Assembly: GCA_964518475.1 (NCBI GenBank)
Contig: CAZFGR010000009.1
Location: 1-64,000, forward strand
Direction: 5' to 3'
Source of the DNA: an uncultured Nitrososphaerota archaeon
GTDB lineage: Archaea; Asgardarchaeota; Njordarchaeia; Njordarchaeales; Njordarchaeaceae
DNA: 64,000 bases
The notes beneath the pieces are model-generated. The model was not told the DNA's origin. It was given only the letters and a program-made list of their open reading frames with translations, and made no database searches. Positions 23,026 to 63,349 of this stretch are shown piece after piece. Every line of letters starts with the position of its first letter. The stretch's first letter is position 1. A program made the translations under genes and the position numbers.

Positions 23026-24075
23026 CTACCTGGAATACGCGTCACGCAAAACTCGTAAATACTCCAGCACTAACTTCTTCTCTAGCTCTCCACTCTTTAG
23101 CTTATTCATAACCTTTGCAATAACGTATCTAGGGAATACGAACGTTACTGTTGGGTCAGAGAAGAGGTAATACTTATCCTCGTGCTTTTCCACTATCTCG
23201 TAAGGTCTTAATCGTTCCTCTATAATTTGATCCCACCCATGAGTACCAGCTTCGTCTTCACTAATAATACCCCTACTCCTAAACTCTGAGAGAACCTTGT
23301 AAGTATTCACATCGGCTAGGATACTTGGTAGAATATTTTTATCTTGGATCCATTCCCTATCATAATATCTCTTGACGAATTCGCTCCATCTCTCCACATA
23401 CCCAGGAATGTTTTTAGCTATTTGATCAAAGGCTTTTGGTCTTCTTCGAATAAAGGCCACATCCCTTAACAAGTAAACACGTTCGATAAGTGCTTTCTCG
23501 TCATAATGAGTTAGAAGCACATTAAGCGCTTCCAATGTATAGACATAAGAAGCGATAACATCACGACCTACTCCTGGGTGAATCCCTCTCAGTCGCCTCA
23601 CAATCTCGTCTAGAGTTAATATGCCTTCCTCAACCATTAGATCTAGTAAAGTTCTCGCCTCCTCATCCATGAAAACATCCGCCAGTCTCTGCTCCATTGT
23701 TAAGGATGGATAATTGGTGATCCAGTTCAGCGCCTCAGCCCAACTCTCTTCCGAATAGAGCATTTCTTCGCCCATTTTGAAAATTTTCAACGCTAAACGA
23801 ACAAGACCGCCTCGATAATCATTAGGATTCTCGCCAGATTTCAGAATAACACCAAAAATTTCATTGAGTTCTACTCCAGAGTAATAGGCTAAGATATTTC
23901 GCCCACCCGAGGAAATGTTATAGAACCCTTCTCTTCTTTCTTCCTCTTCCAGAAAAAGCCCACCGAAAACGTTCACTAGTTCATCAGGTGATAGACTTAA
24001 CTCTACTGGATAAGTACCTAATAGCATCGGACCTCTACGAGGATCCCACCTCATCCTAAAGATACCTTCGGGCAA
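23026..24075 (-). CDS. Longin/uDENN-like N-terminal domain plus tandem winged-helix domains (NPRL2-like architecture)
   Basis: N-terminal beta-WDPRRGP-beta-YP motif and longin-type strand/helix pattern; two wHTH-like segments (ARTLLDLMVEEGILTLDEI; TYKVLSEFRSRGII). Confidence 0.55.
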   Translation of the reverse strand: MPEGIFRMRWDPRRGPMLLGTYPVELSLSPDELVNVFGGLFLEEEERREGFYNISSGGRNILAYYSGVELNEIFGVILKSGENPNDYRGGLVRLALKIFKMGEEMLYSEESWAEALNWITNYPSLTMEQRLADVFMDEEARTLLDLMVEEGILTLDEIVRRLRGIHPGVGRDVIASYVYTLEALNVLLTHYDEKALIERVYLLRDVAFIRRRPKAFDQIAKNIPGYVERWSEFVKRYYDREWIQDKNILPSILADVNTYKVLSEFRSRGIISEDEAGTHGWDQIIEERLRPYEIVEKHEDKYYLFSDPTVTFVFPRYVIAKVMNKLKSGELEKKLVLEYLRVLRDAYSR

Positions 24076-24242
24076 GGATTACACCCACTTATTTCATCTT
24101 TCACAGTAAGCAAATAGTTTTTCCCAAAAAATCATAATCAATCATAATTAAAAATAATTATAAAAATATATAATACATCGTGTTAGGAGAGTAAGATATT
24201 CACAATATAAAAGTATCTAGTAAAAACAATTCCATAGTATCG

Positions 24243-24866
24243 GTGGCTAATTTGACGATCGAAAATGAAATCCTAAGACTACTCCGAAGTCACCCCTTAG
24301 GACTTACCACAAAAGAAATAGCGGAAAAACTCAATGTGAGTAGAAACACTATTGCAAAATACGTAGAAAAACTCAAAGAAAAGGGTATTCTAGCAGAGAA
24401 ACGCGTTGGAGCTTATAGATTATGGCTCCTAAGCGAATACTATCAGCGAAGCAAATTATTTTCCCGGAGAATACTAATAGCTTTATCCCAAGCTCTCCTA
24501 AGATTATTGGGAGAAGAAGCCTATAAACTTGCCCAAACAGTAGGTAGGATCATGGCTGAAGATCTCTACCCCGAACTAGAAATAGATCCGGACGACCCAT
24601 TCGAAAGCATCGCAGACATCTTATCAAATCTTGCCGAAGGCGTCCGCTCAGAAAGCATAAAAATAAATGAACAACGCGGCTTATTAGTGGTGAGAATAAA
24701 TGATCCAACACTCCCAGAGGAATTCCTTAACCTCTTATCGAACATTCTTAAAGGCTCCATAGAAGAAATAATCGAGAAACGCTATGGAGAGAAATACTCA
24801 GTAAGCTTAAGCACGAATAAAAAACCCGACTCATTCGAAATAGTGATGGAAATCCAGCTAGCATGA
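24243..24866 (+). CDS. wHTH-V4R-like transcriptional regulator, paralog of 16363..17022
   Basis: GLTTKEIAEKLNVSRNTIAKY...VGAYRLW, similar to the paralog along its length (PFE.IA, RG, FE....I). Confidence 0.7.
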   Translation: MANLTIENEILRLLRSHPLGLTTKEIAEKLNVSRNTIAKYVEKLKEKGILAEKRVGAYRLWLLSEYYQRSKLFSRRILIALSQALLRLLGEEAYKLAQTVGRIMAEDLYPELEIDPDDPFESIADILSNLAEGVRSESIKINEQRGLLVVRINDPTLPEEFLNLLSNILKGSIEEIIEKRYGEKYSVSLSTNKKPDSFEIVMEIQLA

Positions 24867-42961: not shown

Positions 42962-44728
42962 CTAGAAATGCGTGTGGAGCACCTCGTATATTCTAATTAT
43001 GTCTTCTTCGGTTAACATACCTAAGTACTCATCTTCATTATCCCTCGAAACTACTATTGCGAAATCCTTGCCTTTGTCCAGCATTTTTTCTAAAGCCTCC
43101 CACAAGCTTTCATCCGGATATACCCTGACGAAATTTCTATCCATAATCTCCTCCACCTTTGTAGACTCCCTCTTATCAATAGGAACCTTCTCAACATCAT
43201 CTATAGAAATGACTCCTAGGACCGTCGAGTTCTTCACCACCGGATAGTGGCGAAATCCATACTTAATGAAGAATTTTTCCACCTCAGCCAGCGTCGAGTC
43301 AGGATGTACAGTAATTGTCTCGCTTCTAGACCTCATAGCTGTATCAACAGGAACTCTAGCGAGTTCTGGAATACGCCACCCAATCTTTATCCCGCTCTTA
43401 GCTAGGGATACCCTATACAATCCTAAAGGTTTCACAAACAAGTGAGCGGAGATAGCACTCGTGGCTACACCAATCATTAACGGAAGAACAATAGTTTGCT
43501 CCCCAGTGATCTCCCCAACAATTACTATGGCGGTTAATGGAATACCTATCGAAGCGCCCAGGAATGCTGCCATCCCGACTAAAACATAGGGAATGACTGA
43601 TGATATGGGTATTGCAAAGAGTTGAGAGCAGACGTATGCGAAGGCAGCGCCAATGAAGCCCCCTATAAAAACTGCTGGAGCAAGATTTCCTCCAGCCCCA
43701 CCGCTCCCCAGTGTTAACGATGTGGCAATCATCTTCAGAATACCTATTGCAAAGATTACCCATACAGCTAATTCTACGGGCGAAGTAGCCACTTCTTGGA
43801 GACTATGGTACTGCATTCCTAGAACCTCTGGTCTCCAAAGCCCAATGAGCCCAACCATTAATCCACCTAACGCTGGTTTAAGATACTCTGGTACCCCCCA
43901 CCTCTCGAAGAAATCCTTTATCAGGAAATCACTCTTCACCCAAAACGCTGCTAAAATTCCTGAGATCAGTCCAAGAATAGCGAATAAGAAATACTCCATC
44001 GGATTCTTAATAGCGCCTATCGGAGGTAAATACACAGTAACCTCTTGTCCCAGAATCAAATAAGTAACAACAGTGCTTGTGAAACATGCCAGTGTTATAG
44101 GGATAAGTTGAGGAACCGAGAGTTCTCCAAAGAGGAGCTCGATACCAAACATTAATCCCCCTAGAGGAGCATTAAATGTAGCACTAATACCAGAGGCTAG
44201 CCCAGCTACGATAAGCAAAATCCGATCCTGGCCTTTTATTTTAAGAAGGCGTGAAATGCCACAACCAATTCCAGCCCCCGCAACAGCTGAAGGAGCTTCT
44301 CTTCCAGCACTACCTCCACTTCCCATCGTTATTGCTGCCCCAATAAGCCCCATCGGTATGTTTGTAATGGAGAGAATCCCCATGCGGTGCTGTATCGATT
44401 TAATTATTCCCGTTATTTCAATATCGTCACGATCCAACTTTACTGCCGAAAATAATATCCCTACAATGAGACCCCCAAGAGCTGGCAAGAAAACGATTGT
44501 GTAGGTGCCGAGAGTGTATTCTAGAGAACTATCAATAAGCTCAAAGAATATTCTATGGAAAAACTCTATCGTTAATCTAAATATGACAATTGTTAAACCC
44601 GTCAAAACACCAACAATTATAGCAGTTAAGTCAAGTAATAATGGTCGCTTATAGTATCTCAAAGTATAGCTGATTCTTTTCCAAAAGCTGCTAGTTACAC
44701 CCAATCTAGCTCCCCACTGAATTATCAA
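42962..44728 (-). CDS. CLC-family chloride transporter with CBS pair (divergent filter motifs)
   Basis: GSGGSAGREAP, FNAPLGG..FGIE, GGAGGNLAP, C-terminal CBS pair. Confidence 0.9.
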   Translation of the reverse strand: MIIQWGARLGVTSSFWKRISYTLRYYKRPLLLDLTAIIVGVLTGLTIVIFRLTIEFFHRIFFELIDSSLEYTLGTYTIVFLPALGGLIVGILFSAVKLDRDDIEITGIIKSIQHRMGILSITNIPMGLIGAAITMGSGGSAGREAPSAVAGAGIGCGISRLLKIKGQDRILLIVAGLASGISATFNAPLGGLMFGIELLFGELSVPQLIPITLACFTSTVVTYLILGQEVTVYLPPIGAIKNPMEYFLFAILGLISGILAAFWVKSDFLIKDFFERWGVPEYLKPALGGLMVGLIGLWRPEVLGMQYHSLQEVATSPVELAVWVIFAIGILKMIATSLTLGSGGAGGNLAPAVFIGGFIGAAFAYVCSQLFAIPISSVIPYVLVGMAAFLGASIGIPLTAIVIVGEITGEQTIVLPLMIGVATSAISAHLFVKPLGLYRVSLAKSGIKIGWRIPELARVPVDTAMRSRSETITVHPDSTLAEVEKFFIKYGFRHYPVVKNSTVLGVISIDDVEKVPIDKRESTKVEEIMDRNFVRVYPDESLWEALEKMLDKGKDFAIVVSRDNEDEYLGMLTEEDIIRIYEVLHTHF

Positions 44729-44819
44729 CTTAATTCGTAGGGATATCCCTATAAACTTTGTATGAAAACTGGGAAGCCTATCCTCCTATAATAAGCTTTT
44801 GAATGTTTGCCTATTCACA

Positions 44820-46580
44820 CTATTCCTTTAGTGTTCGATAGTACAGCATCTTTACAATATCCTCATAGGCAATACATCCTATCAATCTCTTCTTTTCCTC
44901 ATAATTTATCACGGGCAATCTAAATATTTTATTTTCCATCATCAGTGAAATCGCTTTCTTTATCGAGTCATTAGGGGATACGTATATTGGGTTCTGCTTT
45001 ATAATATTCCCTACTCGCGTATTACTTCTCATTTCTCTAGGAACTGACAACACATCATAGATTGATAAGAGGCCTACATAGTTTCCATTCTCATCAACTA
45101 CCGGCACTGCTGTTTGATTATACTTCCGCATAACCTCCTCTACAACGTTTAAGGAGTCATCGGTTTTGACAATGACGAGATCAGGACTCATTACTTCCTC
45201 TACCCTTATCTTCTCCATTATAGAATCTATTATCTCTGGCAAATGTATTGGAGACTCTTCTCTATACTCTAGTTGATTCTCGTAGATTGAGGCCTCTCCT
45301 GAAACAATATATGAGAGGGTCGAGGCAAGAATTGCTGGGGCCAGAATATTATAATCTCCCGTCATCTCCGCTACCATAATAATCGCGGTTAACGGTACCT
45401 TAGCGGCACCAGCAAAGAAGCTAGCCATTCCTATCAAGACAAAAATGCCGGGGTCATAGATTATCTCTGGGAAAAATCCATATAATATACGTCCGAACGC
45501 TCCCCCTATCATAGCACCAATAACTATCGAAGGAGCGAATACACCTCCGCTTCCACCTGATCCTATCGTAAATGACGTAGCTAGGATCTTCGTGAAGACT
45601 AGAAGAATCATGAGTTCGATAGCTAGTTCTCCATATATCGCTAGTTGTACCCAACCATAACCAGTGGAGAGAACTTGTGGGAAGTAAAAAGCAATTAAAC
45701 CAACTACTATTCCCCCAATTGCTGGCTTATAGTGATCTGGGATATTCATTTTTTTGAACCAATCTCTTACTCCGTAAAACACTCGTACATAGAACCGTGC
45801 AGATAAACCCGCTATGATGCCTAACATAGCGAATAATGGTAATTCAAGCGGCGAGAATCTGTACAAGGGTGTTTCAAAAATTGGTTGCCACCCAACAAAC
45901 ATTGAGAAAATAGCATAACCAATAAAAGACGCTATCAGAGCTGGTACAAATACCTCGACCTCGTAGTCTTTTTTATACGGTACCTCTACACCGAACAACG
46001 CACCTCCTACTGGGGACTTAAAGATGCTTCCAACCCCCGCAGCAGCCGCAGCCATCACTAGTATTTCTCGTTCTTTCTCAGATAAGCCTATTTTACTAGT
46101 AAGAATAGAAATAATACTCGCTGTTATCTGGGCAATAGGTCCCTCTCTTCCAGCAGATCCTCCAGATCCTATTGTTAGTCCTGAAGCAATCATTTTAACC
46201 ATTGCTACGCGTCCACGCACAATCCCTTTTAAGCTATGAACTGCTTTGATTACGGCATCTGTTCCATGGCCCTCAGCTTCAGGTGCAGTACTATAAACAG
46301 TTATTCCAGAGAACAAGCCTCCAACTGCTGGTATTATAATGAGAATCCCTGTGAACTCGCATGTTAATAATTCAAGCTCAAGCTCTATAAGAGAAGTTTC
46401 GCCATGAGCTTGAGGAATTTCTAGACCAGCGAATGTTTCTAGGAAGAGCCAGCTGAAGACATCTAGAATAAGATAAAACGCTGTTGCCGCAATACCCGCT
46501 ATTATCCCTATGAGTATTGTGAAGAGAAGAACCTTTTTTGTAATTAAGAACCTTCTAACGGCCATTGTGGGTCTGTTCAC
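44820..46580 (-). CDS. CLC-family chloride transporter with CBS pair
   Basis: EGHGTD, GSGGSAGREGP, FGVE, GGSGGVFAP, SIY, CBS pair. Confidence 0.93.
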   Translation of the reverse strand: MNRPTMAVRRFLITKKVLLFTILIGIIAGIAATAFYLILDVFSWLFLETFAGLEIPQAHGETSLIELELELLTCEFTGILIIIPAVGGLFSGITVYSTAPEAEGHGTDAVIKAVHSLKGIVRGRVAMVKMIASGLTIGSGGSAGREGPIAQITASIISILTSKIGLSEKEREILVMAAAAAGVGSIFKSPVGGALFGVEVPYKKDYEVEVFVPALIASFIGYAIFSMFVGWQPIFETPLYRFSPLELPLFAMLGIIAGLSARFYVRVFYGVRDWFKKMNIPDHYKPAIGGIVVGLIAFYFPQVLSTGYGWVQLAIYGELAIELMILLVFTKILATSFTIGSGGSGGVFAPSIVIGAMIGGAFGRILYGFFPEIIYDPGIFVLIGMASFFAGAAKVPLTAIIMVAEMTGDYNILAPAILASTLSYIVSGEASIYENQLEYREESPIHLPEIIDSIMEKIRVEEVMSPDLVIVKTDDSLNVVEEVMRKYNQTAVPVVDENGNYVGLLSIYDVLSVPREMRSNTRVGNIIKQNPIYVSPNDSIKKAISLMMENKIFRLPVINYEEKKRLIGCIAYEDIVKMLYYRTLKE

Positions 46581-53294: not shown

Positions 53295-53678
53295 TTATTC
53301 TTCACTCTTCTCTTCTTTCTTCTCCTCTTCTGCCTTTTCTTCTTCTTTTTTCTCGGCTTTTTCTTCTTCCTCTTTTTCGAGTTCTTCTAATTGCTTCTCA
53401 ATCTCCTCCACATTAATCTCTTCAGGGGACGGAGTCTGTACTAGTGCCCAACCGATCCAGGTGAATATCACGCCTCCAAGGATTACCAGTAATAGGATTG
53501 GAATCAATAGGATCCAGTAGAGCGGTGGTACTGGAATACCCCACAGACTTGACCACTCCGTGAGGTTTATCTTATTGAATATTGGAGCTAAGAGACCCCA
53601 GATTATGTATAGAGCCGTCACAATTATGGATACGAGCATGAAAACTACGCCTAGGATTTTTTCACCACTCACCATCAA
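53295..53678 (-). CDS. Two-TM membrane protein resembling DPM2, with Glu/Lys-rich tail
   Basis: EKILG....VS.....LY..W.LL.P ... P..YW...IP ... WIGW....TPSP, followed by a charged tail. Confidence 0.6.
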   Translation of the reverse strand: MMVSGEKILGVVFMLVSIIVTALYIIWGLLAPIFNKINLTEWSSLWGIPVPPLYWILLIPILLLVILGGVIFTWIGWALVQTPSPEEINVEEIEKQLEELEKEEEEKAEKKEEEKAEEEKKEEKSEE

Positions 53679-54853: not shown

Positions 54854-55384
54854 TTATCTTATATATCCCAGTTCTCGTAGTTTTTCCATAATTTTCTTAG
54901 CCCCTTCCTCTGGAGACTCCTTCTCAGTATCCACTACTACTTCGGGAGAGAGAGGCTCCTCATATGGGTCATCAATTCCCGTCATGTGTTTTATTTTACC
55001 CTCTAAAGCCTTTTTATAGAGACCTTTGGGATCCCTCTTCATCGCTGTCTCGAGGGAACATTTAACATAGACCTCTATAAAGTCTCCTATTGTTTCTCTC
55101 GCGAGCTTTCTAATGGCTCGGTATGGGGAGACGAAAGCTGCGATTACGAAGACGCCGTTTCTCGCTAGTAGCTTGCTCACATAGATTACTCTCTTCAGGT
55201 GTCTTTCCCTATCCTCTTTGGTAAATCCCGCTTCTGGGCTAAGCCACTTTCTTACCTCGTCTCCATCAAGTACCTCTACTTTACAACCCATACTTCTAAG
55301 TTCTCTCTCCAAAACCCTTGCAAGAGTTGTTTTTCCAGCGGCTGGGAGACCGGTTAGCCAGATAACACAACCCTTCTCACTCAT
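54854..55384 (-). CDS. cysC: Adenylyl-sulfate (APS) kinase
   Basis: WLTGLPAAGKTT, LDGD.VR, SPYR, RDPKGLY, TGIDDPYE.P. Confidence 0.96.
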   Translation of the reverse strand: MSEKGCVIWLTGLPAAGKTTLARVLERELRSMGCKVEVLDGDEVRKWLSPEAGFTKEDRERHLKRVIYVSKLLARNGVFVIAAFVSPYRAIRKLARETIGDFIEVYVKCSLETAMKRDPKGLYKKALEGKIKHMTGIDDPYEEPLSPEVVVDTEKESPEEGAKKIMEKLRELGYIR

Positions 55385-55386
55385 AC

Positions 55387-56769
55387 CTAATCACCGAGAA
55401 GGGATCTTCCATCCATATCGTTCTCAAATTTTATACCGAAAAAGTCCAGGATAGTTGGGGCTACATCAAATATGCTTACTTCGCCAAGATTTCGCTTCCC
55501 AATGGTTTCTTGGGGATCATAAATTATTAGGATACCGTCCCAGTCATGAACAGCATCGTCGGGTCCTTTATCGTTTTCCGGAAGATAATATGTGCCGTAA
55601 CCAACGGTTCCAGCGGATCTCCAGTATAGATCATCGAAATATACGAATAGGTCCGGAGGATCGCCATTCAGAACTGGGAAGAGTTCTTGTGGACGATACA
55701 CCTTATTATCCATCTCATTACCGTTCTGGTCTCTTATCTTCTTGAAGTCATTAATTAGTTGTTCACGCATGTCCTCGAAATCCTCCTCCTTAACAACTCC
55801 ATGAGGCTCTCTACCCTTAAGATTAATGAATACCCTTGCGTAGTACCCGCCCCATCCCCAAGCAATTGTTTGGTCCCAGTTTATCTCTGCCTTCGCCAGA
55901 TCCGTCCCTGGCTCTGGCTCTTTTCTAAATTCTAGGTAGCCTTGATCAGCTAGCCACTCATTTATTACGAAGGCTCCTTTCATCCTTTTTGCTCCGTGAT
56001 CCGATGCTACGATAACTACTGTTTCGTCATCGATCAGATTGAGTATTCGTCCTATGCGTTGATCAATATACTTGTAGTAATCTGGAATCACATTCTCGAA
56101 CTCGTTTCCAGGAGTGTATAGGTGGTGTTCCTTATCGAAGAATTTCCAGAAAGCGTGTTGGACTCGATCAACCCCTATCTCAACAAACATGAAGAAATCC
56201 CATTTCTCGCGCATCAGGTACTCTACGATGTCGAAGTGTTGCTCAGTCATTTTGTAAAGATTCTTGATCAGTTCCCTCCTCTTCTCCGTTCTGAACACTA
56301 CATCGAATATGAAGGGGCCGAATTTTGACTCTATTTCCTGCTTAAGCTGCGGGGGATAAGTGTATTCTTTCTCCGGTCCTGGTGTTATGAAACAGGAGAT
56401 CCAGAAACCATTGATTTTCTTTGGGGGATAGCCCGGAGGGACGCTTATGACGACTGATCTTAAACCTTGCTCACCTATGATGTCCCAAATAGCTGGCTCC
56501 TTAACGGATAGTGAGCTGACTATGTAGAAGTCGTTATACGCGCCTTTTTTCCTGTGTCTAAAACCATACATGCCGAGTTTTCCTGGGTTTTTCCCCGTTA
56601 CCATAGCAGCCCATGCAGGAATGGTTATCGGTGGATGAGTAGATCTCATTCTAGCGTATGCTCCGTCCTGTATCAACTTAGAGATATTTGGAAGATCCTT
56701 TCTAAACTTCTCAAAAACGAGTTTCGGTGGAGCAGCGTCAAGCCCTATCAATAATACCTTCCTGCTCAT
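55387..56769 (-). CDS. Alkaline phosphatase superfamily protein (type I phosphodiesterase/NPP-like)
   Basis: IGLDAA, STHPPITIPAW (Thr nucleophile, no CxPxR), DRVQH, SDHG, HDWDG, DVAPTIL, MDGRSL. Confidence 0.88.
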   Translation of the reverse strand: MSRKVLLIGLDAAPPKLVFEKFRKDLPNISKLIQDGAYARMRSTHPPITIPAWAAMVTGKNPGKLGMYGFRHRKKGAYNDFYIVSSLSVKEPAIWDIIGEQGLRSVVISVPPGYPPKKINGFWISCFITPGPEKEYTYPPQLKQEIESKFGPFIFDVVFRTEKRRELIKNLYKMTEQHFDIVEYLMREKWDFFMFVEIGVDRVQHAFWKFFDKEHHLYTPGNEFENVIPDYYKYIDQRIGRILNLIDDETVVIVASDHGAKRMKGAFVINEWLADQGYLEFRKEPEPGTDLAKAEINWDQTIAWGWGGYYARVFINLKGREPHGVVKEEDFEDMREQLINDFKKIRDQNGNEMDNKVYRPQELFPVLNGDPPDLFVYFDDLYWRSAGTVGYGTYYLPENDKGPDDAVHDWDGILIIYDPQETIGKRNLGEVSIFDVAPTILDFFGIKFENDMDGRSLLGD

Positions 56770-56803
56770 TCCTTAACAACTCCCTTTTTCTCTATTACAT
56801 AGC

Positions 56804-57955
56804 TTATTCTACGAAGGGTTTATCCCATTTCAGTATTACCTCAGCCACCTCTGGCCTCATCATGTATTCGGGAGGTTTCTTTTTCTCCATTATCAATTTC
56901 CTGATAAGGGTACCGCTGAAACGCACCCTATCCTCCCCACCATGCGGACATGTTTTCTCATTAGCGATACCGCCACATTTGCGGCAATAGAAGAACTCTC
57001 TAAAGAAGAGCGGTGTTATTCCGAGATCAGGGAACTCTTTGAAGATTTCGTGTGCTTCGTAAGGGCCATAGTAATTACCTACTCCAGCATGGTCTCTCCC
57101 AACAACAAAGTGTGTGCAACCAAAGTTTTTCCTTATGATTGCGTGGAAAATGGCTTCTCTCGGTCCAGCATAACGCATCCACGTTCTTAGTATGGCGAGA
57201 ACAGCCACGTCCTTGGGATAATAGTGCTTCAATAGAACCTCGTAGGCTTTCAAGATTACTTCATCCTTGAAATCCCCTGGCTTCTTTTTGCCTATTAGGG
57301 GATTGATGAAGATTCCATCAGCGAATACTAGGGCTGTTTTTTGCAAGTACTCATGGCCTAGGTGTGGAGCGTTTCTTGTCTGGAATCCTACTACTGTTTC
57401 CCACCCCTTTTCCCTGAATAGAACTCGTGTCTCTGCTGGGTATAGAGTGTACCTAGCGAATGGGTTTGGAGGTTCATTTAGCAGCTCGATTTTACCCCCT
57501 ATTAACAATTCCTTCATCCTATATACTCTCGCAACCCCTGGATGCTTAGTATCCCGCGTCTTGAAAACTTTCTCTGCAAACTCGTCCTTATCGTATCCAT
57601 AGATCTCCTCAATATAGAGAACCGCTAGAGGCATATCTTGTTCGTTCTTTAAAACAATCTCGTCACCCTCCTGTAGTCCCGCGATTTCATCTGGGTCAAC
57701 ATCGAGGACTATCGGGATTGTCCAAGGAAGATCATTAGATAGACGCATATCATGTATAACACTCAGATAATCTTCTTGCACCATGAATCCCTCTAATGGA
57801 CTAAACACACCCCTAGCAATGTTGACTAGATCTACCGCGGTGTCTTCGTTAACAACTAGAGAAGGCATATCCTTGACTTCATCCAATAATCGCTCCCTTC
57901 TCCTACCAACAATAACTCTATTTACGAGTCTCCCACCATGAGGACGGGGAAGCAT
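56804..57955 (-). CDS. sat: Sulfate adenylyltransferase (ATP sulfurylase)
   Basis: PHGGRL, FSPLEGFM, FQTRNAPHLGHE, RYAGPREA, GRDHAGVG, SGT.IR, MRPEV. Confidence 0.97.
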   Translation of the reverse strand: MLPRPHGGRLVNRVIVGRRRERLLDEVKDMPSLVVNEDTAVDLVNIARGVFSPLEGFMVQEDYLSVIHDMRLSNDLPWTIPIVLDVDPDEIAGLQEGDEIVLKNEQDMPLAVLYIEEIYGYDKDEFAEKVFKTRDTKHPGVARVYRMKELLIGGKIELLNEPPNPFARYTLYPAETRVLFREKGWETVVGFQTRNAPHLGHEYLQKTALVFADGIFINPLIGKKKPGDFKDEVILKAYEVLLKHYYPKDVAVLAILRTWMRYAGPREAIFHAIIRKNFGCTHFVVGRDHAGVGNYYGPYEAHEIFKEFPDLGITPLFFREFFYCRKCGGIANEKTCPHGGEDRVRFSGTLIRKLIMEKKKPPEYMMRPEVAEVILKWDKPFVE

Positions 57956-57966
57956 ATCGTACCCTC

Positions 57967-58245
57967 CTAATCAAGATATCCCAGAGCCTTTAGTTTCTGT
58001 TTGATCCTCTCAACATCCTCGGGAGTAAATGGCTCCTCACTTCTCTCCGATTCGTGCATAGCAACTACTTCCCTGAGAACATATGTAACGTAGTCAGAGA
58101 CGGATGTGAAGCCCGTTCCCTCTATAAGCTTCTTAATCCTATTATACAGCGTTACAGGAATAGAAACAGTCGTATACTTCTTCCTAGCCATCTTCTGACT
58201 AGAACTCTCAACTTTTTGCTTTTCCTCACTAGACAAAGAACACAC
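57967..58245 (-). CDS. CopG/RHH protein with C-terminal LKALGY tail
   Basis: YTTVSIP..LY..IK....GTGFTSVSDYVTYVLRE; ends ERIKQKLKALGYLD; alternative start ATG 58191. Confidence 0.85.
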   Translation of the reverse strand: MCSLSSEEKQKVESSSQKMARKKYTTVSIPVTLYNRIKKLIEGTGFTSVSDYVTYVLREVVAMHESERSEEPFTPEDVERIKQKLKALGYLD

Positions 58246-58322
58246 CAGAGATTTTAATTAAAAATTATGGAAATTTAATGATAATTAATTAAGAAAGAGA
58301 AGTTAAAAAATTTTCTAAAAAT

Positions 58323-58532
58323 TTATAGGTAGCCCAGGCTCCTTAACCTCTCCTTGATCGCTTCCTCTTCCTCCTTAGAGTATACCGTTTCCTCCTCTTC
58401 CTCTAGTACTTGCTCTAGAACATAAGTAACGAAGTCATCGACTGTCTTAAATTCGGTATCCTTGATCTCTCTCAATATCCTATCATATAGTTTTTTAGGA
58501 ATCTTAACACTCACAAACTCTTCAGATCCCAT
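58323..58532 (-). CDS. CopG/RHH protein with C-terminal LRSLGY tail
   Basis: VSVKIPKKLYD...FKTVDDFVTYVLE; ends EEEEAIKERLRSLGYL; start refined to ATG 58532. Confidence 0.85.
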   Translation of the reverse strand: MGSEEFVSVKIPKKLYDRILREIKDTEFKTVDDFVTYVLEQVLEEEEETVYSKEEEEAIKERLRSLGYL

Positions 58533-59342: not shown

Positions 59343-59792
59343 CTATTCTTCTTCATACTTATGCTCTTTTAGGTATTCTAGGGGACTGAGAACTTCTGCA
59401 TTTATTTTACCCTTAAAATGTTTTATATTCCATGTTATGAGCACCTCTACGTTGTGCTGCTCGATTACTTGTGCTATTTGAGCATCCCCATACGGGATCC
59501 CCCTCCTTATATAGGATAAAATAGATGTTACATATTGAGCCCAATCCAAGACTTCTTCTGGGAAGAGAATCAGAATTTCCTTACTCCTTAAATACCTCTC
59601 TGCAACACCATTTATTTTATGCGCTAGTCCAGCCATTGCGTATAATCCGCACAATTCTAGTAAGTTATGAATAGTCGTACATAAGCCACCCCTTTTTATA
59701 AGAATTTTGAGAACTTTTTCGTTAGTCTCGTATCTCTTATCCCAAGTGAATAAATGATGAATGGCGAGAACATCCGTGTCTAAACAAATCAA
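59343..59792 (-). CDS. vapC: PIN-domain toxin (VapC-like)
   Basis: ICLDTDVL, TT.HNLLE, GDAQIA, ITWN.KHF. Confidence 0.88.
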   Translation of the reverse strand: MICLDTDVLAIHHLFTWDKRYETNEKVLKILIKRGGLCTTIHNLLELCGLYAMAGLAHKINGVAERYLRSKEILILFPEEVLDWAQYVTSILSYIRRGIPYGDAQIAQVIEQHNVEVLITWNIKHFKGKINAEVLSPLEYLKEHKYEEE

Positions 59793-60127
59793 ACTTCTCG
59801 CCCTCTTATTTTTTCAAGAATCTTGTCTAAGTCGTCAGTACCATATCGTTCCTTAAATGCCCTCCTCACTTTGTCAACATCCTCTGCCTCACCAATATCC
59901 ATGATTGAAGAATCTCTGGGAAGCTTTTTCATAAGATACAACCTAATCAATCTCCCAACTCTATCTAGCCTATCAAATCTCTCAATTAAGTGCCTAATAG
60001 CATCCGCAATAGCCTCTGTTCTATCCCTGTAATAACCCTCCTTCAATAACCTATCAAGCTCTGCTACCAAAGTCGCGGGCAGTCTCACCTGAATAAGCAC
60101 CCGATCCTTATTCCTCATAAGCATCAC
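59789..60127 (-). CDS. vapB: RHH antitoxin (VapB-like)
   Basis: IQVRLP..LV.ELD.L...GYY.DRTEAI.DAIR; 4-nt overlap with the PIN gene. Confidence 0.82.
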   Translation of the reverse strand: MMLMRNKDRVLIQVRLPATLVAELDRLLKEGYYRDRTEAIADAIRHLIERFDRLDRVGRLIRLYLMKKLPRDSSIMDIGEAEDVDKVRRAFKERYGTDDLDKILEKIRGREV

Positions 60128-60149: not shown

Positions 60150-60646
60150 CTATCATACATAAAAGCTTGTATAATCAAGCGATGCATCCTCTGCATCCTA
60201 ATCTATCTAAGAGACTGTTAAAATTCCTTAATAGCTGAACAGAATCTCCAAATACCTGCATAGCCTATTTGAATCCCTTCACAATACCTTTGTCTAAAGC
60301 GACGAGAATCTTTCTCCATTCACAGTAGATCCTAACGGCGTAAAATTGTAGTGCACGTTTCCTTACAGTTATAACATATGCTTCTTGGATAACCATCACG
60401 CCAAACCTTGAGAACCTTCAGGATCATTTCTTCCCTAGTATTAACTAACCACCAGCTAGTCTTCTCATTAATGATAGCATCCACATTAGAAAACACCAGA
60501 ACACTTCCTGAATTACGTGTGAATTTTCCCAATCTTTCTCTCAACCAAGAAATACCCGCCTCCCTAAACAACGATCTCCAGATTCTGTTTTTATATACCA
60601 TATGCATTATATATCATATGTAATATATACTATTTGTGTGATAGAA

Positions 60647-62137
60647 ATGATCTTCGTAGACAGAGAAGAAGAACTACGAAAACTCGAAAAACTCCTTAAT
60701 CTAAGACTGTCTGGAACACAAACATTTGTCCTCCTATATGGATTGAGACGAGTAGGAAAAACGACTCTCATCGATAAGTTCCTCAGATCAAAAAAGGGTG
60801 TCAGAATAGACTGTGGCTCAATGGTATCTGGCAGCGACTTTTTCCGAGGAATATATTCTGCCCTCTCAGATCTAGGGAAGGAAAACAATGCACTTACTCG
60901 ATATAGAGGCCTTTATGAGGCACCTCTAGATGATGATATTGAAATGATTAATCAAGCATTTGATCTCCTTAACGAATTCGTCAAATCCATGAATTATTTA
61001 GTTGTGGCATTCGACGAGTTACACGGATTCATAGAGAACTACGCAAGGCTCAGAGGTGAACGCTACCTCGTGGCGAGAGAAAGAATCTTATGGGTTCTGC
61101 GAAACAATCTCCGGGAATCAGATATCAAAATATTCTTCATAATAGTTACGAGCGCAGGATTCCTCTTCGAAGAGTATGGCCGAGCAGATAGGGCCTTCAT
61201 GGGGTTATTCCACCGAGTAAGAATCGACCCCCTAAGCATAGAGCATAGCGAAGAGCTGGCAAGGAAACTACTAGATATGGCTGGCGTAGAATACTCCAGA
61301 GAAGTAATTAGAGAAATCGCCCGACTATCTGGAGGCATTCCAAAAGTTATAGAACTGCTGGTCGGACTAATCATAGGAAAAGAAAAAGTATCCCTAAATA
61401 ATCTAATAGAGAAAGTAAGGGAGGCACTCATTAGAGGAGACTTTGACGACTTCTTTGAAGCATACATAAACTTCGTCGCCGACTACTCCAGGTGGGACAA
61501 GACGACGATTCTGAGAATACTAAGATGCTTGGCAGAGAAGAAGAAACCAAAGGAAATAAGCGCGGTGACGAGGATAAAGTACTACACAGTTCTCAACATC
61601 CTCGCAGATCTAAGAAAAAAACATGTAATCACGAAGAATAACGAGATAGCATACCCACTATTGAAAGAATGGTTACTCGCAGGGAAGCACCCACCAAGCG
61701 GGAAAAGACGAATAGATCTCCTAATGCAATCCCTAGGAATAACTTATGAAGCCTATATCAGAGAACTACTGAGAAGCATAAATAAGAGAATCGTAATAGA
61801 AGGCGAAGAACTATTCTTCGGAACAACAGACAAACTAGTAATAGAACCAATAGATAAAGTAGAGACAACAGATGAAATCGACTTCATCGCGCATCAAAAA
61901 ACATGCCAATACGTAATAGGGAAAGTAAAACTAGGAACAATGACAAAAAACGACATAGCGAAACTACTGAGAAAGAAAGAGGAATTAGGAATAGAGGCAA
62001 AAGCCGTGATCATTGCAAAGAACGCAGACCCAGTAGCAATAGCAGAAGCCACAAGAAGAAAAGTAGTAATAATAAGCCACGAAGCAATAAACCAAATAGC
62101 AAGAAAAATTGGAAAACCATCAATAAAAGTAGACTAA
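60647..62137 (+). CDS. Archaeal AAA+ ATPase (COG1672-like) with wHTH and degenerate C-terminal PD-(D/E)XK domain
   Basis: FVDREEEL, YGLRRVGKTT, AFDELH, SGGIP, EIDF...GKVK; start refined to ATG 60647. Confidence 0.85.
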   Translation: MIFVDREEELRKLEKLLNLRLSGTQTFVLLYGLRRVGKTTLIDKFLRSKKGVRIDCGSMVSGSDFFRGIYSALSDLGKENNALTRYRGLYEAPLDDDIEMINQAFDLLNEFVKSMNYLVVAFDELHGFIENYARLRGERYLVARERILWVLRNNLRESDIKIFFIIVTSAGFLFEEYGRADRAFMGLFHRVRIDPLSIEHSEELARKLLDMAGVEYSREVIREIARLSGGIPKVIELLVGLIIGKEKVSLNNLIEKVREALIRGDFDDFFEAYINFVADYSRWDKTTILRILRCLAEKKKPKEISAVTRIKYYTVLNILADLRKKHVITKNNEIAYPLLKEWLLAGKHPPSGKRRIDLLMQSLGITYEAYIRELLRSINKRIVIEGEELFFGTTDKLVIEPIDKVETTDEIDFIAHQKTCQYVIGKVKLGTMTKNDIAKLLRKKEELGIEAKAVIIAKNADPVAIAEATRRKVVIISHEAINQIARKIGKPSIKVD

Positions 62138-62422
62138 AGCACCCACAGTTCTTAGTTAGAGTCCATATAAGAAAATACACTAATACCAATAATGTATCAG
62201 GAATCTACAGTCCCCTACCTTAAGCCCCAGTCCTGCCCCTTAGTATTCTCTCCCAAAATCGGGTAGTGGTGGCCTAGCTGGCTCTACCCCGATTTACAAA
62301 AAGGCGTTTAGCTGCAAAACTAGGTTAAGGAGAAAGGGATGAATTTGAAAAAGCGATAAATAAAAATGCATATAAAGAAACAAAGCAATAAAGGAGAACA
62401 ACACTTAAGCAGTGGGGAAGAG

Positions 62423-63349
62423 ATGAGAAAGAAACCGTACATAGTCGCGGGAATTCCCGCGTACAATGAGGAGAAGACGATTGCGAAAGTTGTATTGTTG
62501 ACAAAGAAGTACGTGGACAAAGTAGTCGTGGTAGATGATGGATCAACAGACATGACGGCGGAGATCGCGGAAGCCTTGGGAGCAGAAGTAATAAGACACA
62601 AAGAGAATATGGGATATGGAGCAGCACTACAGACAATATTCCACAAAGCAAGAAGAGAAGACGCAGACATCCTCGTCATACTAGATGCTGATGGACAGCA
62701 CGATCCTTCAGAAATTCCGAAACTTATAGAACCGATAATGAAGGGTAAAGCAGATATTGTGATAGGTTCTCGATTTCTAGGAAAAACGGATGCGAAGAAA
62801 TATAGACTTATGGGAGTGAAGATGCTCACTAAGGCAACAAATATCCTAATGAAAGCCGAACTTACGGATGCGCAAAGCGGATTTAGGGCATATAACAAGA
62901 AGGCTATTCAACTAATAAGACCAACAGAGGACGGTATGGGAGCGAGCGTGGAAATACTCTCACAAGCAATAGATAATAATTTGAAAATAGTTGAGGTACC
63001 GATAACGATAAGGTATGAAGGACTAGAGACCTCAAGCGAACACCCATTAATTCACGGAGCTGGTGTAGCGGGAACATTAATAACCAAAACAATAGGACGA
63101 AAACCCCTGAGATACCTCGGGGTACCAGGGATAATGAGTATCTTTGCTGGACTCTATTTCATAAACTGGTTGGTAGCACTATATAATCAGGAACATTACT
63201 TCAGCCTACCAATGGCAATAATAGCCCTAGGATTCATATCCGTGGGAATAGTATTATTATCCTCTGCAATAATAATACACATAGTAAGAAATCTAGAGAA
63301 AAAAATAATTGCATACGAGTACACAGTTATTTCTCATAAAAAATCTTAG
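62423..63349 (+). CDS. GT2 polyprenol-phosphate glycosyltransferase (DPM1-like) with two C-terminal TMs
   Basis: IPAYNEE, VDDGSTD, GYG.A, DADGQH, GSRF, DAQSGFRAY; start refined to ATG 62423. Confidence 0.9.
   Translation: MRKKPYIVAGIPAYNEEKTIAKVVLLTKKYVDKVVVVDDGSTDMTAEIAEALGAEVIRHKENMGYGAALQTIFHKARREDADILVILDADGQHDPSEIPKLIEPIMKGKADIVIGSRFLGKTDAKKYRLMGVKMLTKATNILMKAELTDAQSGFRAYNKKAIQLIRPTEDGMGASVEILSQAIDNNLKIVEVPITIRYEGLETSSEHPLIHGAGVAGTLITKTIGRKPLRYLGVPGIMSIFAGLYFINWLVALYNQEHYFSLPMAIIALGFISVGIVLLSSAIIIHIVRNLEKKIIAYEYTVISHKKS

What the first reader, a model, noticed from the sequence alone, without database searches (positions are those of the whole stretch)
54854..58532. PAPS-generating cluster in which two RHH proteins and CysC share an L-x-x-L-G-Y C-terminal tail that the central hydrolase lacks: candidate non-canonical sulfation system
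Seen: five co-oriented genes, RHH-RHH-sat-AP superfamily enzyme-cysC. Their C-termini are EEEEAIKERLRSLGYL, EDVERIKQKLKALGYLD and (CysC) KIMEKLRELGYIR, while the AP-superfamily protein stops at MDGRSLLGD. Known: Sat plus CysC make PAPS; many sulfatase/phosphodiesterase-like proteins continue after the DGRSL motif into an acidic 'EEEE..ERL..LGY' tail. No APS/PAPS reductase or P-loop sulfotransferase is in this window. Inference: PAPS is used to sulfate surface glycans or lipids. The Thr-nucleophile enzyme may act as the sulfo-transferring or PAP(S)-processing subunit, with the LGY tail supplied in trans, either as a docking peptide linking enzyme state to transcription or as a Tyr carrier (by analogy with the DltX tyrosine relay). 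Similar gene clusters probably occur in other archaea, so the novelty is the mechanism.
Basis: partly seen in the sequence, partly recalled or inferred. Interest (0 to 1): 0.8.

Follow-up and report, generated by a model that had tools for sequence, protein, structure and literature searches.

The report
Shared tail in sulfate-activation operon
This is a copy of an already published archaeal operon that makes the activated-sulfate donor PAPS. Its two small regulator proteins end in a real, apparently undescribed 22-residue tail that turns up on different proteins of the same pathway in other microbes, and nobody knows what it binds.

Summary
In detail: RHH1, RHH2, sat, an AP-superfamily (NPP-type) gene and cysC are co-oriented on the minus strand, with the quoted C-termini.

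**Already known.** The cluster is published (copG-sat-[DHH]-NPP-cysC in Pyrococcus yayanosii and Thermococcus onnurineus). The Thermococcus NPP-type protein was measured as a pyrophosphatase. Earlier agents of this scan reached the same reading on other genomes.

**Apparently undescribed.** The tail is a discrete module, [FY][ST]xE[ED]ExxIxx[RK]LxxLGY[LIM](x)-COOH.
- It is invariant in both RHH families.
- Its Tyr is never replaced, in 314 of 314 unique tails, and lies one or two residues from the C-terminus.
- It was never seen on Sat.
- It does occur on some PF01663 and PF00884 enzymes and on extended CysC. A CysD subfamily ends in a similar motif.
- All five assessable clusters without an RHH gene carry the tail on an enzyme. 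Only 1 of 54 clusters with RHH does.

**What does not hold.** The window's CysC end is not this module (10 bits against 47-55). It is the native terminal helix of APS kinase.

RHH2 sits directly before sat in 70 of 78 loci, behind a conserved TAATTA-N4-TAATTA site.

The most likely role of the tail is a C-terminal docking peptide. Its receptor is unidentified. Nothing supports the central enzyme being a sulfotransferase.

The parts
58323..58532 (-). RHH1: 69-aa CopG/ribbon-helix-helix-type protein ending in the tail module (EEEEAIKERLRSLGYL)
   Evidence: ORF. 43% identical to RHH2. Tail profile 47.5 bits. Relatives lie near sat/AP/cysC in 36 ORFs of the RHH2-centred loci.
58326..58391 (-). RHH1 tail module (last 22 codons)
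   Evidence: Alignment A2. The genome-wide profile search finds only this and the RHH2 tail in the whole genome.
58276..58291 (.). Operator-like site TAATGATAATTAATTA (TAATTA-N4-TAATTA, 1 mismatch) in the RHH1-RHH2 spacer, upstream of RHH2
   Evidence: The same dyad with a 4-nt gap lies upstream of RHH2 in 68 of 77 loci, against 46 of 1520 random 200-nt segments.
57967..58191 (-). RHH2: 74-aa CopG/RHH-type regulator, 11 nt upstream of sat, ending EDVERIKQKLKALGYLD
   Evidence: 1626 relatives, the best 120 at 71-100% identity across Asgard, Bathyarchaeia, Desulfurococcales and Caldarchaeales. L66, L69, G70 and Y71 are invariant. Sat is the next gene in 70 of 78 loci. Weak match to the NikR RHH domain.
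57970..58038 (-). RHH2 tail module (last 23 codons)
   Evidence: Tail profile 55 bits.
56804..57955 (-). sat: homo-oligomeric ATP sulfurylase (PUA_2 + ATP-sulfurylase), no tail
   Evidence: Pfam 317 and 191 bits. NF003166 558 bits. 62-84% identical to 44 orthologues. No complete Sat ORF fits the tail motif (0 of 79), and none of the 64 Sat hits in the AP-centred loci passes the tail profile.
55387..56769 (-). Cytoplasmic NPP-type alkaline-phosphatase-superfamily enzyme (PF01663). It has a Thr49 nucleophile, no signal peptide and no tail.
   Evidence: Pfam 181 bits. Invariant D11, T49, D201, H205, D257, H258 and H408. AF2 model pLDDT 96.3. Nearest solved folds are ENPP1/3 and Xanthomonas NPP, TM about 0.55. 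No NCBIfam family and no PDB sequence relative.
54854..55384 (-). cysC: APS kinase
   Evidence: Pfam 202 bits. TIGR00455 227 bits.
54857..54895 (-). CysC terminal helix KIMEKLRELGYIR: a look-alike of the tail's last 13 residues, native to the APS-kinase fold
   Evidence: 10 bits against the tail profile. Covered by PRK00889. Variable among orthologues.

Best explanation
The locus is a copy of the known archaeal sulfate-activation operon (CopG/RHH regulator, ATP sulfurylase, NPP-type enzyme, APS kinase), which supplies PAPS. RHH2, and probably RHH1, is a DNA-binding autoregulator that recognises TAATTA-N4-TAATTA in its own promoter. The central NPP-type enzyme is most likely the helper hydrolase described for Thermococcus TON_1705, which removes pyrophosphate and so pulls the unfavourable sulfurylase step. 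It is unlikely to be the sulfotransferase. The PAPS consumer is not in the window. The genome's seven other PF01663 paralogues are candidates, by analogy with the sulfatase-like Agl30/Agl31 sulfotransferases. The LGY tail of the two RHH proteins is a genuine, self-contained C-terminal module of about 22 residues: an aromatic-Ser/Thr pair, an acidic helix start, an amphipathic basic helix, then Gly-Tyr and one or two last residues. I infer that it is a C-terminal docking peptide recognised by a protein of the sulfate-activation machinery. That would let a regulator and pathway enzymes bind the same site. The receptor is not identified, and the AP-family enzyme is my first guess. CysC's LGY in this window is the ordinary cap of its last helix. 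Shown: gene identities, conservation, operator, distribution of the tail. Inferred: docking function, receptor, pyrophosphatase role here.
For: **Known cluster.** PMC8268124 section 2.1 and PMC4463584 describe it. TON_1705 kinetics are in PMC9653972 Table 1.

**Conservation of order.** Of 78 RHH2-centred loci, 70 have sat as the next gene, and the modal order is RHH2-sat-AP-cysC. Of 79 AP-centred loci, 70 hold a tail-bearing protein. The five full clusters without one all start at a contig edge.

**Operator.** 68 of 77 upstream regions against 3% of random segments. The window site is at 58276-58291.

**Tail as a module.**
- 622 cluster representatives at E<=1e-3 among 1.84 billion proteins, nearly all at the extreme C-terminus.
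- Tyr follows Gly in 314 of 314 unique tails, always 1-2 residues from the end apart from one tail with four.
- Motif count: RHH2 89/89, RHH1 36/36, Sat 0/79. No Sat passes the tail profile in the second set either.
- Carriers elsewhere: PF01663, PF00884, CysC with a second appended copy, and a CysD subfamily with a similar ending.

**Complementarity.** The RHH-less clusters L004, L005, L006, L008 and L177 all carry the tail on an enzyme, against 1 of 54 clusters with RHH. My hypergeometric arithmetic gives about 1e-6, not corrected for phylogeny.

**Other points.**
- The AP core is 47-78% identical across phyla.
- An AF2 model of a natural AP with the tail in cis gives the tail helix pLDDT 63 rising to 91. 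This is weak, because no contacts are returned.
Against: No physical or modelled contact between the tail and any protein was obtained, so docking is inferred from distribution only.

Orthology of the window's enzyme to TON_1705 rests on family and gene order, not on a direct alignment.

The tabulated TON_1705 kcat (2.1 s-1) is about 10^4 times lower than that of the housekeeping pyrophosphatase Ton1914 in the same organism. Pyrophosphatase could therefore be a side activity. This genome also has two membrane H+-pyrophosphatases.

RHH assignment by sequence is weak: no Pfam RHH hit and NikR at E=0.15.

LxxLGY is also a generic helix-end motif, seen in helix 1 of PG_binding_1 (P0181).
Confidence: 0.55

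Rival explanations
1. First reader's model. The central AP-superfamily enzyme is the sulfo-transferring or PAP(S)-processing subunit of a non-canonical sulfation system. It needs the LGY tail supplied in trans by the RHH proteins or CysC, as a docking peptide or as a Tyr carrier.
For: No P-loop sulfotransferase, sulfite reductase or clear CysH in the genome. AP-superfamily sulfatase-like proteins Agl30/Agl31 are genetically shown sulfotransferases in Halobacterium (PMC11980604). In one bacterium the orthologue of the central enzyme carries the tail itself (L005), and its tail helix is modelled with pLDDT up to 91. Every assessable cluster has at least one tail. Tyr is never replaced.
Against: The only experimental datum for this enzyme type is pyrophosphatase activity. 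Its high conservation across phyla argues for one small substrate. It also accompanies CysDN-type clusters in which no APS kinase was detected nearby, so no PAPS is made locally. Agl30/31 belong to PF00884, not PF01663. CysC here is not a true tail carrier.
Confidence: 0.15
2. The tail is only a structural or oligomerisation helix of the RHH regulators, for example tetramerising dimers on the tandem TAATTA sites as the Mnt C-terminal helix does. Its presence on enzymes is convergence on a common helix-capping motif.
For: The operator has two to four half-sites at 10-bp spacing, which suits cooperative binding of dimers. LxxLG[aromatic] is a common helix end, seen in PG_binding_1 helix 1 and in native CysC and CysD ends. 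Tandem tails occur in single proteins (P0162, P0188).
Against: Enzyme-borne tails match the whole 22-32-residue profile, not just the cap (24-40 bits). Where the RHH is missing the tail sits on an enzyme, and it almost never does when RHH is present. That is hard to explain by convergence. CysC in L004 and L006 has the module appended after its own native cap.
Confidence: 0.15
3. The tail is a membrane-targeting amphipathic helix (MinD-like) that brings the regulator and PAPS-related enzymes to the membrane, where lipid-linked glycans or the TauE transporter sit.
For: The last 11 residues form a basic amphipathic helix after a flexible acidic linker and lie strictly at the C-terminus. TauE and dolichol-type glycosylation genes are frequent neighbours (window PIG-P/DPM2-like and GT2 genes).
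Against: Membrane-targeting helices tolerate wide sequence variation. Here L, L, G and Y are invariant, Tyr is never Phe, and the distance to the C-terminus is fixed. That points to specific protein recognition. A secreted lipoprotein carries three copies (P0188).
Confidence: 0.1

Closest known systems
Archaeal sulfate-activation ('assimilation') gene cluster: P. yayanosii PYCH_17520-17560, T. onnurineus TON_1704-1707, Ferroglobus, Aciduliprofundum, Aeropyrum, Ignicoccus (PMC8268124; Lee et al. 2009 J Bacteriol 191:3415, as cited there)
   Same: CopG-type regulator, ATP sulfurylase, type I phosphodiesterase/nucleotide pyrophosphatase and APS kinase in one operon, with no obvious reductase or sulfotransferase.
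   Different: The window lacks the DHH pAp phosphatase and the TauE gene and has two RHH paralogues. The passages of these papers that I read do not mention the shared C-terminal tail or the operator. Orthology to TON_1705 was not aligned directly here.
CysK-binding C-terminal tails of CysE, CymR and the CdiA-CT toxin (PMC5562914, PMC6829319, bioRxiv 10.1101/2024.09.19.614015)
   Same: A short, strictly C-terminal peptide shared by a pathway enzyme, a transcription factor and other proteins of sulfur metabolism, proposed here to bind one common partner.
   Different: There the receptor (the CysK active site) and the binding are proven and the motif is 4-5 residues. Here the module is about 22 residues, the receptor is unknown and no binding has been shown.
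Nucleotide pyrophosphatase/phosphodiesterases (ENPP1/3, Xanthomonas NPP; Pfam PF01663)
   Same: Fold, Thr nucleophile and two-metal site.
   Different: Cytoplasmic, about 15-18% identity, TM about 0.55 with large insertions, fixed inside sulfate-activation operons.
Agl30/Agl31 of Halobacterium salinarum: AP-superfamily, sulfatase-like N-glycan sulfotransferases (PMC11980604)
   Same: AP-superfamily proteins implicated in archaeal sulfation. They are a precedent for the tail-bearing PF00884/PF01663 paralogues being PAPS users.
   Different: They are the PF00884 type in an aglB glycosylation cluster, not the PF01663 enzyme between sat and cysC. No LGY tail is reported for them.
CysD, small subunit of heterodimeric ATP sulfurylase (PDB 1ZUN_A)
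   Same: Canonical CysD also ends ...KKRQGYF. A 268-aa CysD subfamily next to RHH-tail genes ends invariantly ...MQKLRSLGYM.
   Different: Not homologous to Sat. Its ending is native to the family rather than appended, and scores lower on the tail profile (12-34 bits).

Membership tests
Published archaeal sulfate-activation cluster (copG-sat-[DHH]-NPP-cysC) | Co-oriented RHH/CopG gene, sat, PF01663 enzyme and cysC in one operon | tested here: met
   The same order holds in most of 78 RHH2-centred and 79 AP-centred loci. Description in PMC8268124.
Published archaeal sulfate-activation cluster (copG-sat-[DHH]-NPP-cysC) | DHH-family pAp phosphatase and TauE permease in the cluster | tested here: not met
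   Neither is among the five genes or their neighbours. They are optional in related loci.
NPP / alkaline-phosphatase superfamily (PF01663) | Pfam score above cut-off, Thr nucleophile and metal ligands conserved, NPP-like fold | tested here: met
   181 bits against a cut-off of 23. D11, T49, D201, H205, D257, H258 and H408 are invariant. Their roles are assigned from knowledge of NPPs. ENPP1/3 and Xac NPP are the top structural matches.
TON_1705-type inorganic pyrophosphatase | Orthology to TON_1705 and pyrophosphatase activity | not testable with these tools
   The TON_1705 sequence could not be fetched and Lee 2009 is not held. The link rests on the identical gene order described in PMC8268124 and on kinetics quoted in PMC9653972.
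PAPS-dependent P-loop sulfotransferases | Sulfotransfer_1 or Sulfotransfer_3 domain | tested here: not met
   No match in the 91%-complete genome. None of the five proteins has such a domain.
AP-superfamily sulfotransferases (Agl30/Agl31 type) | PF00884 sulfatase-like core located in a glycosylation cluster, with genetic evidence of sulfation | tested here: inconclusive
   The window enzyme's best family is PF01663 and its PF00884 hit is only 33 bits. The genome search for PF00884 finds nothing. Function is not testable here.
CopG/Arc/MetJ ribbon-helix-helix regulators | N-terminal beta-strand plus two helices, dimeric DNA binding to repeated sites | tested here: inconclusive
   No Pfam RHH hit. 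The profile matches the NikR RHH domain at E=0.15 over residues 12-54. Sources name relatives CopG/RHH. The conserved TAATTA-N4-TAATTA upstream site supports DNA binding.
LGY tail module (defined here, alignment A2) | Full-length match to the 32-position profile, ending 1-2 residues after Gly-Tyr at the C-terminus | tested here: met
   RHH2 55 bits and RHH1 47.5 bits. CysC fails at 10 bits, matching profile positions 20-32 only. Sat and AP have no hit.
HbYX proteasome-activator motif | Hydrophobic residue, then a penultimate Tyr, then any last residue | tested here: not met
   Gly precedes Tyr in all tails. Tyr is third from the end in about half of them.
PG_binding_1 domain | Three-helix domain whose first helix ends LxxLGY | tested here: not met
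   Only helix 1 is resembled (P0181). The tail ends the protein right after GY.
CysK-type C-terminal tail docking (works-like comparison) | The tail inserts into a defined receptor site | not testable with these tools
   The receptor is unknown. The one complex job gave no verdict (see Tried and rejected).

The most novel reading that the evidence does not exclude
The invariant Tyr of the tail may be a covalent acceptor rather than a mere contact residue. When sulfate is scarce, the sulfate adenylyltransferase (Sat or the unrelated CysD) would adenylylate the tail Tyr instead of sulfate. Alternatively the Tyr would be sulfated. The ever-present NPP-type phosphodiesterase, whose classic substrates are aryl-nucleotide diesters, would remove the group. 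It would explain four things at once: Tyr is never Phe; it sits at a fixed distance from the C-terminus; the tail follows two non-homologous adenylyltransferases; and an NPP enzyme is always nearby.
Probability: 0.05. Interest if true: 0.85.

Novelty: new variant of a known kind. Interest (0 to 1): 0.5.

Why it matters
The operon itself is textbook-adjacent and published. The open questions in archaeal sulfation are who consumes PAPS and how the pathway is controlled.

This work adds a concrete handle. One conserved C-terminal peptide is shared by the pathway's regulator and, in genomes without that regulator, by APS kinase and by AP-superfamily paralogues. A CysD subfamily ends in a similar motif. 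The pattern reaches DPANN archaea and CPR bacteria.

If the peptide docks onto one pathway enzyme, it would be a second example of the CysE/CymR-CysK principle, in which a regulator and an enzyme compete for one site, this time at the sulfate-activation step. It would also mark the tail-bearing AP-family paralogues as the likely missing sulfotransferases.

The peptide is short enough to synthesise, so the question is directly testable.

Tried and rejected
**Complex prediction.** One job used Sat + AP + a 32-residue RHH1 tail, each with its own alignment and the tail as partner. It scored 0.00 and 0.18 against a mark of 0.32. The verdict was 'no answer' and controls were not run. It counts neither for nor against binding.

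**Word-based search for longer tail carriers.** One search gave only 5 hits, too insensitive. It was replaced by the profile search.

**HbYX proteasome motif.** Rejected, because Gly precedes Tyr and the position of Tyr varies.

**PG_binding_1 homology.** Rejected, because only helix 1 is resembled.

**Reading the tail-bearing 310-aa protein of L101 as PAPS reductase.** Pfam suggested this. It was corrected to a CysD subfamily by NCBIfam and PDB.

**Lee et al. 2009 and Mougous et al. 2006.** Neither could be read. The TON_1705 data are therefore second-hand, and the role of the CysD C-terminus in 1ZUN is unknown to me.

**Annotation of Haloferax Agl7.** It could not be retrieved.

**Operator pattern as a regulon marker.** It is not enriched in the window as a whole (11 matches against 12.9 expected), so no regulon can be claimed from it.

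**AF2 model of the cis-tail enzyme.** It gives only pLDDT and no contacts, so it is suggestive at most.

Full report
**What is in the window.**
Five co-oriented minus-strand genes occupy 54854-58532:
- RHH1, 58323-58532, 69 aa
- RHH2, 57967-58191, 74 aa
- sat, 56804-57955
- an alkaline-phosphatase-superfamily gene, 55387-56769
- cysC, 54854-55384

The gaps are 131, 11, 34 and 2 nt. Pfam and NCBIfam confirm ATP sulfurylase, PF01663 'Phosphodiest' (181 bits) and APS kinase. The two small proteins have no family above threshold. The quoted C-termini are exact. In the whole 2.33-Mb, 91%-complete genome a C-terminal hxxhGY ending occurs in 11 of 11394 crude ORFs, and the three clean cases are all in this operon. 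The closest relatives of the locus are Asgard MAGs labelled Njordarchaeota and Promethearchaeati.

**The cluster is already known.**
PMC8268124 describes copG - ATP sulfurylase - DHH pAp phosphatase - type I phosphodiesterase/nucleotide pyrophosphatase - APS kinase in Pyrococcus yayanosii, with equivalents in Thermococcus onnurineus, Ferroglobus, Aciduliprofundum, Aeropyrum and Ignicoccus. PMC4463584 lists TON_1704-1707 with TON_1705 as 'pyrophosphatase'. PMC9653972 tabulates TON_1705 at kcat 2.1 s-1 and Km 18.8 uM.

Earlier agents of this scan gave the same reading on other genomes, and their notes led me to these papers. I could not read the primary paper or align TON_1705 directly. Membership in that enzyme's orthologous group is therefore inferred from family and gene order.

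**How conserved the arrangement is.**
- RHH2 has 1626 relatives. The best 120 are 71-100% identical across Asgard, Bathyarchaeia, Desulfurococcales, Caldarchaeales and others.
- In 78 RHH2-centred loci with a downstream gene, sat is the next gene in 70. The modal order is RHH2-sat-AP-cysC.
- At least 597 stretches in species-representative genomes encode relatives of the AP enzyme. In the best 79 new loci, archaeal and bacterial (Aminicenantes, Omnitrophota and others), 70 hold a tail-bearing protein. The five full clusters without one all begin at a contig edge, so their upstream gene cannot be seen.
- Sat is 62-84% and the AP enzyme 47-78% identical to orthologues from other phyla.

**RHH2 looks like an autoregulator.**
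Upstream of RHH2, 68 of 77 non-identical loci carry TAATTA-N4-TAATTA with at most one mismatch, almost always with a 4-nt gap. The median position is 61 nt before the conserved KYTT codon. The same pattern occurs in 46 of 1520 random 200-nt segments of the same loci. Arrays of two to four half-sites at 10-bp spacing are visible.

The window has the site at 58276-58291. The pattern is not enriched in the window as a whole, so I claim no regulon. The RHH fold itself is only weakly supported by sequence (NikR RHH domain at E=0.15; source names).

**The tail is a real module, but CysC here does not carry it.**
The consensus is [FY]-[ST]-x-E-[ED]-E-x-x-[IV]-x-x-[RK]-L-x-x-L-G-Y-[LIM]-(x)-COOH. A profile of 30 tails finds 622 cluster representatives at E<=1e-3 among 1.84 billion proteins, nearly all ending at the C-terminus.

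In 318 unique sequences collected for the tail, 314 end in the motif and all 314 have Tyr after Gly, never Phe. In 313 of them Tyr lies one or two residues before the end. Three more have LGY followed by a longer extension.

In the window's genome the profile finds only RHH2 (55 bits) and RHH1 (47.5 bits). CysC scores 10 bits, on the last 13 profile positions only. The CysC end is covered by the APS-kinase family model and varies among orthologues: LGYI, AGYL, LDLI or unrelated, with 16 of 66 fitting the motif. LxxLG-aromatic is also the end of helix 1 of PG_binding_1 (P0181). I therefore read the CysC similarity as an ordinary helix cap.

**Who else carries the full module.**
- No complete Sat ORF fits the tail motif (0 of 79), and none of 64 Sat hits in the second set passes the tail profile.
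- The central AP orthologue rarely does. L005 is the one exception seen.
- Full tails occur on PF01663 paralogues, on PF00884 sulfatase-like proteins, and on CysC as a second copy appended after the native end (L004, L006, L177, L117).
- They also occur in tandem in single proteins (P0126, P0162, and the lipoprotein P0188 with three copies).
- In four bacterial genomes without an RHH-tail gene, the tails sit on CysC and on up to four AP-family paralogues.
- All five assessable clusters lacking RHH (L004, L005, L006, L008, L177) have an enzyme-borne tail, against 1 of 54 clusters with RHH. My hypergeometric arithmetic gives about 1e-6. The loci are not phylogenetically independent, so this is only indicative.

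**A second cluster type.**
The tail-bearing 'PAPS reductase' next to RHH2 in L101 is in fact a short CysD. It scores 338 bits on NF003587, and its best PDB match is 1ZUN_A. Of the 81 CysD-like ORFs found, nearly all end ...MQKLR[SA]LGYM. Canonical CysD ends ...KKRQGYF.

These loci read RHH - CysD - (232-aa AP/PglZ-like protein) - CysN - TauE or a PF01663 enzyme. In only one of the 80 was an APS kinase detected. They occur in Bathyarchaeia, DPANN archaea, CPR bacteria, Brocadiaceae and Omnitrophota. True RHH2 orthologues there keep the TAATTA operator. So RHH-tail proteins and AP-family enzymes accompany sulfate adenylylation whichever of the two non-homologous enzymes performs it.

**What the central enzyme is.**
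Its AF2 model is confident (pLDDT 96.3). The nearest solved folds are ENPP1/3, autotaxin and Xanthomonas NPP, at TM about 0.55 and 15-18% identity. D11, T49, D201, H205, D257, H258 and H408 are invariant. It has no signal peptide.

The only experimental datum for the type is pyrophosphatase activity. Its uniform sequence across phyla suits one small substrate. Two caveats apply. The quoted kcat is about 10^4-fold below the housekeeping enzyme of the same Thermococcus. This genome lacks a family I pyrophosphatase but has two H+-pyrophosphatases. The true substrate therefore remains open.

**What PAPS is for.**
The genome has no NIR_SIR sulfite reductase and no Sulfotransfer_1/_3. Its PAPS_reduct hits are a PUA-fused 607-aa protein and a weak 402-aa one. 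The window holds GlmS, a DegT aminotransferase, a GFO/IDH/MocA oxidoreductase, a PIG-P/DPM2-like membrane protein and a GT2. Sulfation of a glycan or lipid is the likelier use.

Candidate consumers are the seven other PF01663 paralogues of this genome, by analogy with the sulfatase-like sulfotransferases Agl30/Agl31. This is inference.

**How the tail most likely works.**
Four features point to a C-terminal docking peptide:
- its strict C-terminal position
- the invariant Gly-Tyr
- its mobility between carriers of one pathway
- the rule that every assessable cluster has at least one

The closest precedent is the CysE, CymR and CdiA-CT tails that all bind CysK.

The receptor is not identified. 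The AP-family enzyme is my first guess. It is common to both cluster types, and a natural cis-tail version models the tail helix with pLDDT 63 rising to 91, although no contacts are returned. Sat is the second guess, because it never carries the tail and is the constant neighbour of RHH2.

**Verdict.**
The sulfotransferase reading of the central enzyme is unsupported, and CysC is a false third member. The tail module and its distribution are a genuine, apparently undescribed feature with a testable mechanism.

Noticed in passing
L203-L281 (for example L204:6136-6942:+ and its neighbours to 9676): A short (about 268-aa) CysD subfamily ends invariantly in ...MQKLR[SA]LGYM. It lies in clusters RHH - CysD - 232-aa AP/PglZ-like protein - CysN - TauE or PF01663 enzyme. 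An APS kinase was detected in only one of the 80 loci. The hosts are Bathyarchaeia, DPANN, CPR, Brocadiaceae and Omnitrophota.
   Followed up: partly
L127:1492-2139:+, L133:398-1048:+, L145:5075-5815:+, L147:3022-3663:-, and P0150: Fusion proteins of 213-246 aa: an N-terminal CopG-like RHH (DUF7557-like), an unassigned domain of about 100 aa, then an RHH2-type domain with the tail. They sit where RHH2 normally sits.
   Followed up: no
P0188, P0162, P0126: The tail occurs in tandem. P0188 is a 91-aa putative lipoprotein with three copies. P0162 is an RHH protein with two. P0126 is a 185-aa protein with an N-terminal RHH followed by two RHH-plus-tail units.
   Followed up: no
L010:9839-11290:-, L043, L051, L060, L081, L088, L089, L094: A second group of 480-580-aa PF01663 paralogues near these clusters ends in a different, basic C-terminal helix (for example ...YRLIKRIQSIKSV and ...FRIAKRLALRGVKR). 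This may be another targeting tail.
   Followed up: no
L055 (QMWW01000001.1): The gene order is a perfect palindrome (RHH1< SAT< RHH2< RHH2> SAT> RHH1>, with mirrored flanks). It is probably an assembly fold-back.
   Followed up: no
window 24135-24160: An exact TAATTAAAAATAATTA and an overlapping one-mismatch copy lie between the divergent genes 23026-24075(-) (no family) and 24243-24866(+) (HTH regulator). This may be chance in AT-rich spacer DNA.
   Followed up: no
window 59343-60127: A PIN-domain protein (149 aa) overlaps an upstream RHH_1/CopG protein (112 aa). This is an ordinary VapBC-type toxin-antitoxin pair, unrelated to the tail-bearing RHH genes. A 511-aa archaeal ATPase_2/STAND protein follows at 60602-62137.
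   Followed up: partly
window 53295-53678 and 62366-63349: A small membrane protein with weak PIG-P/DPM2 similarity and an acidic Glu/Lys-rich tail, and a GT2 glycosyltransferase (Dpm1-like size). These are eukaryote-like dolichol-sugar components, which fits an Asgard origin.
   Followed up: no
window 42962-46580: Two adjacent paralogous CLC chloride-channel genes, each with CBS pairs.
   Followed up: no
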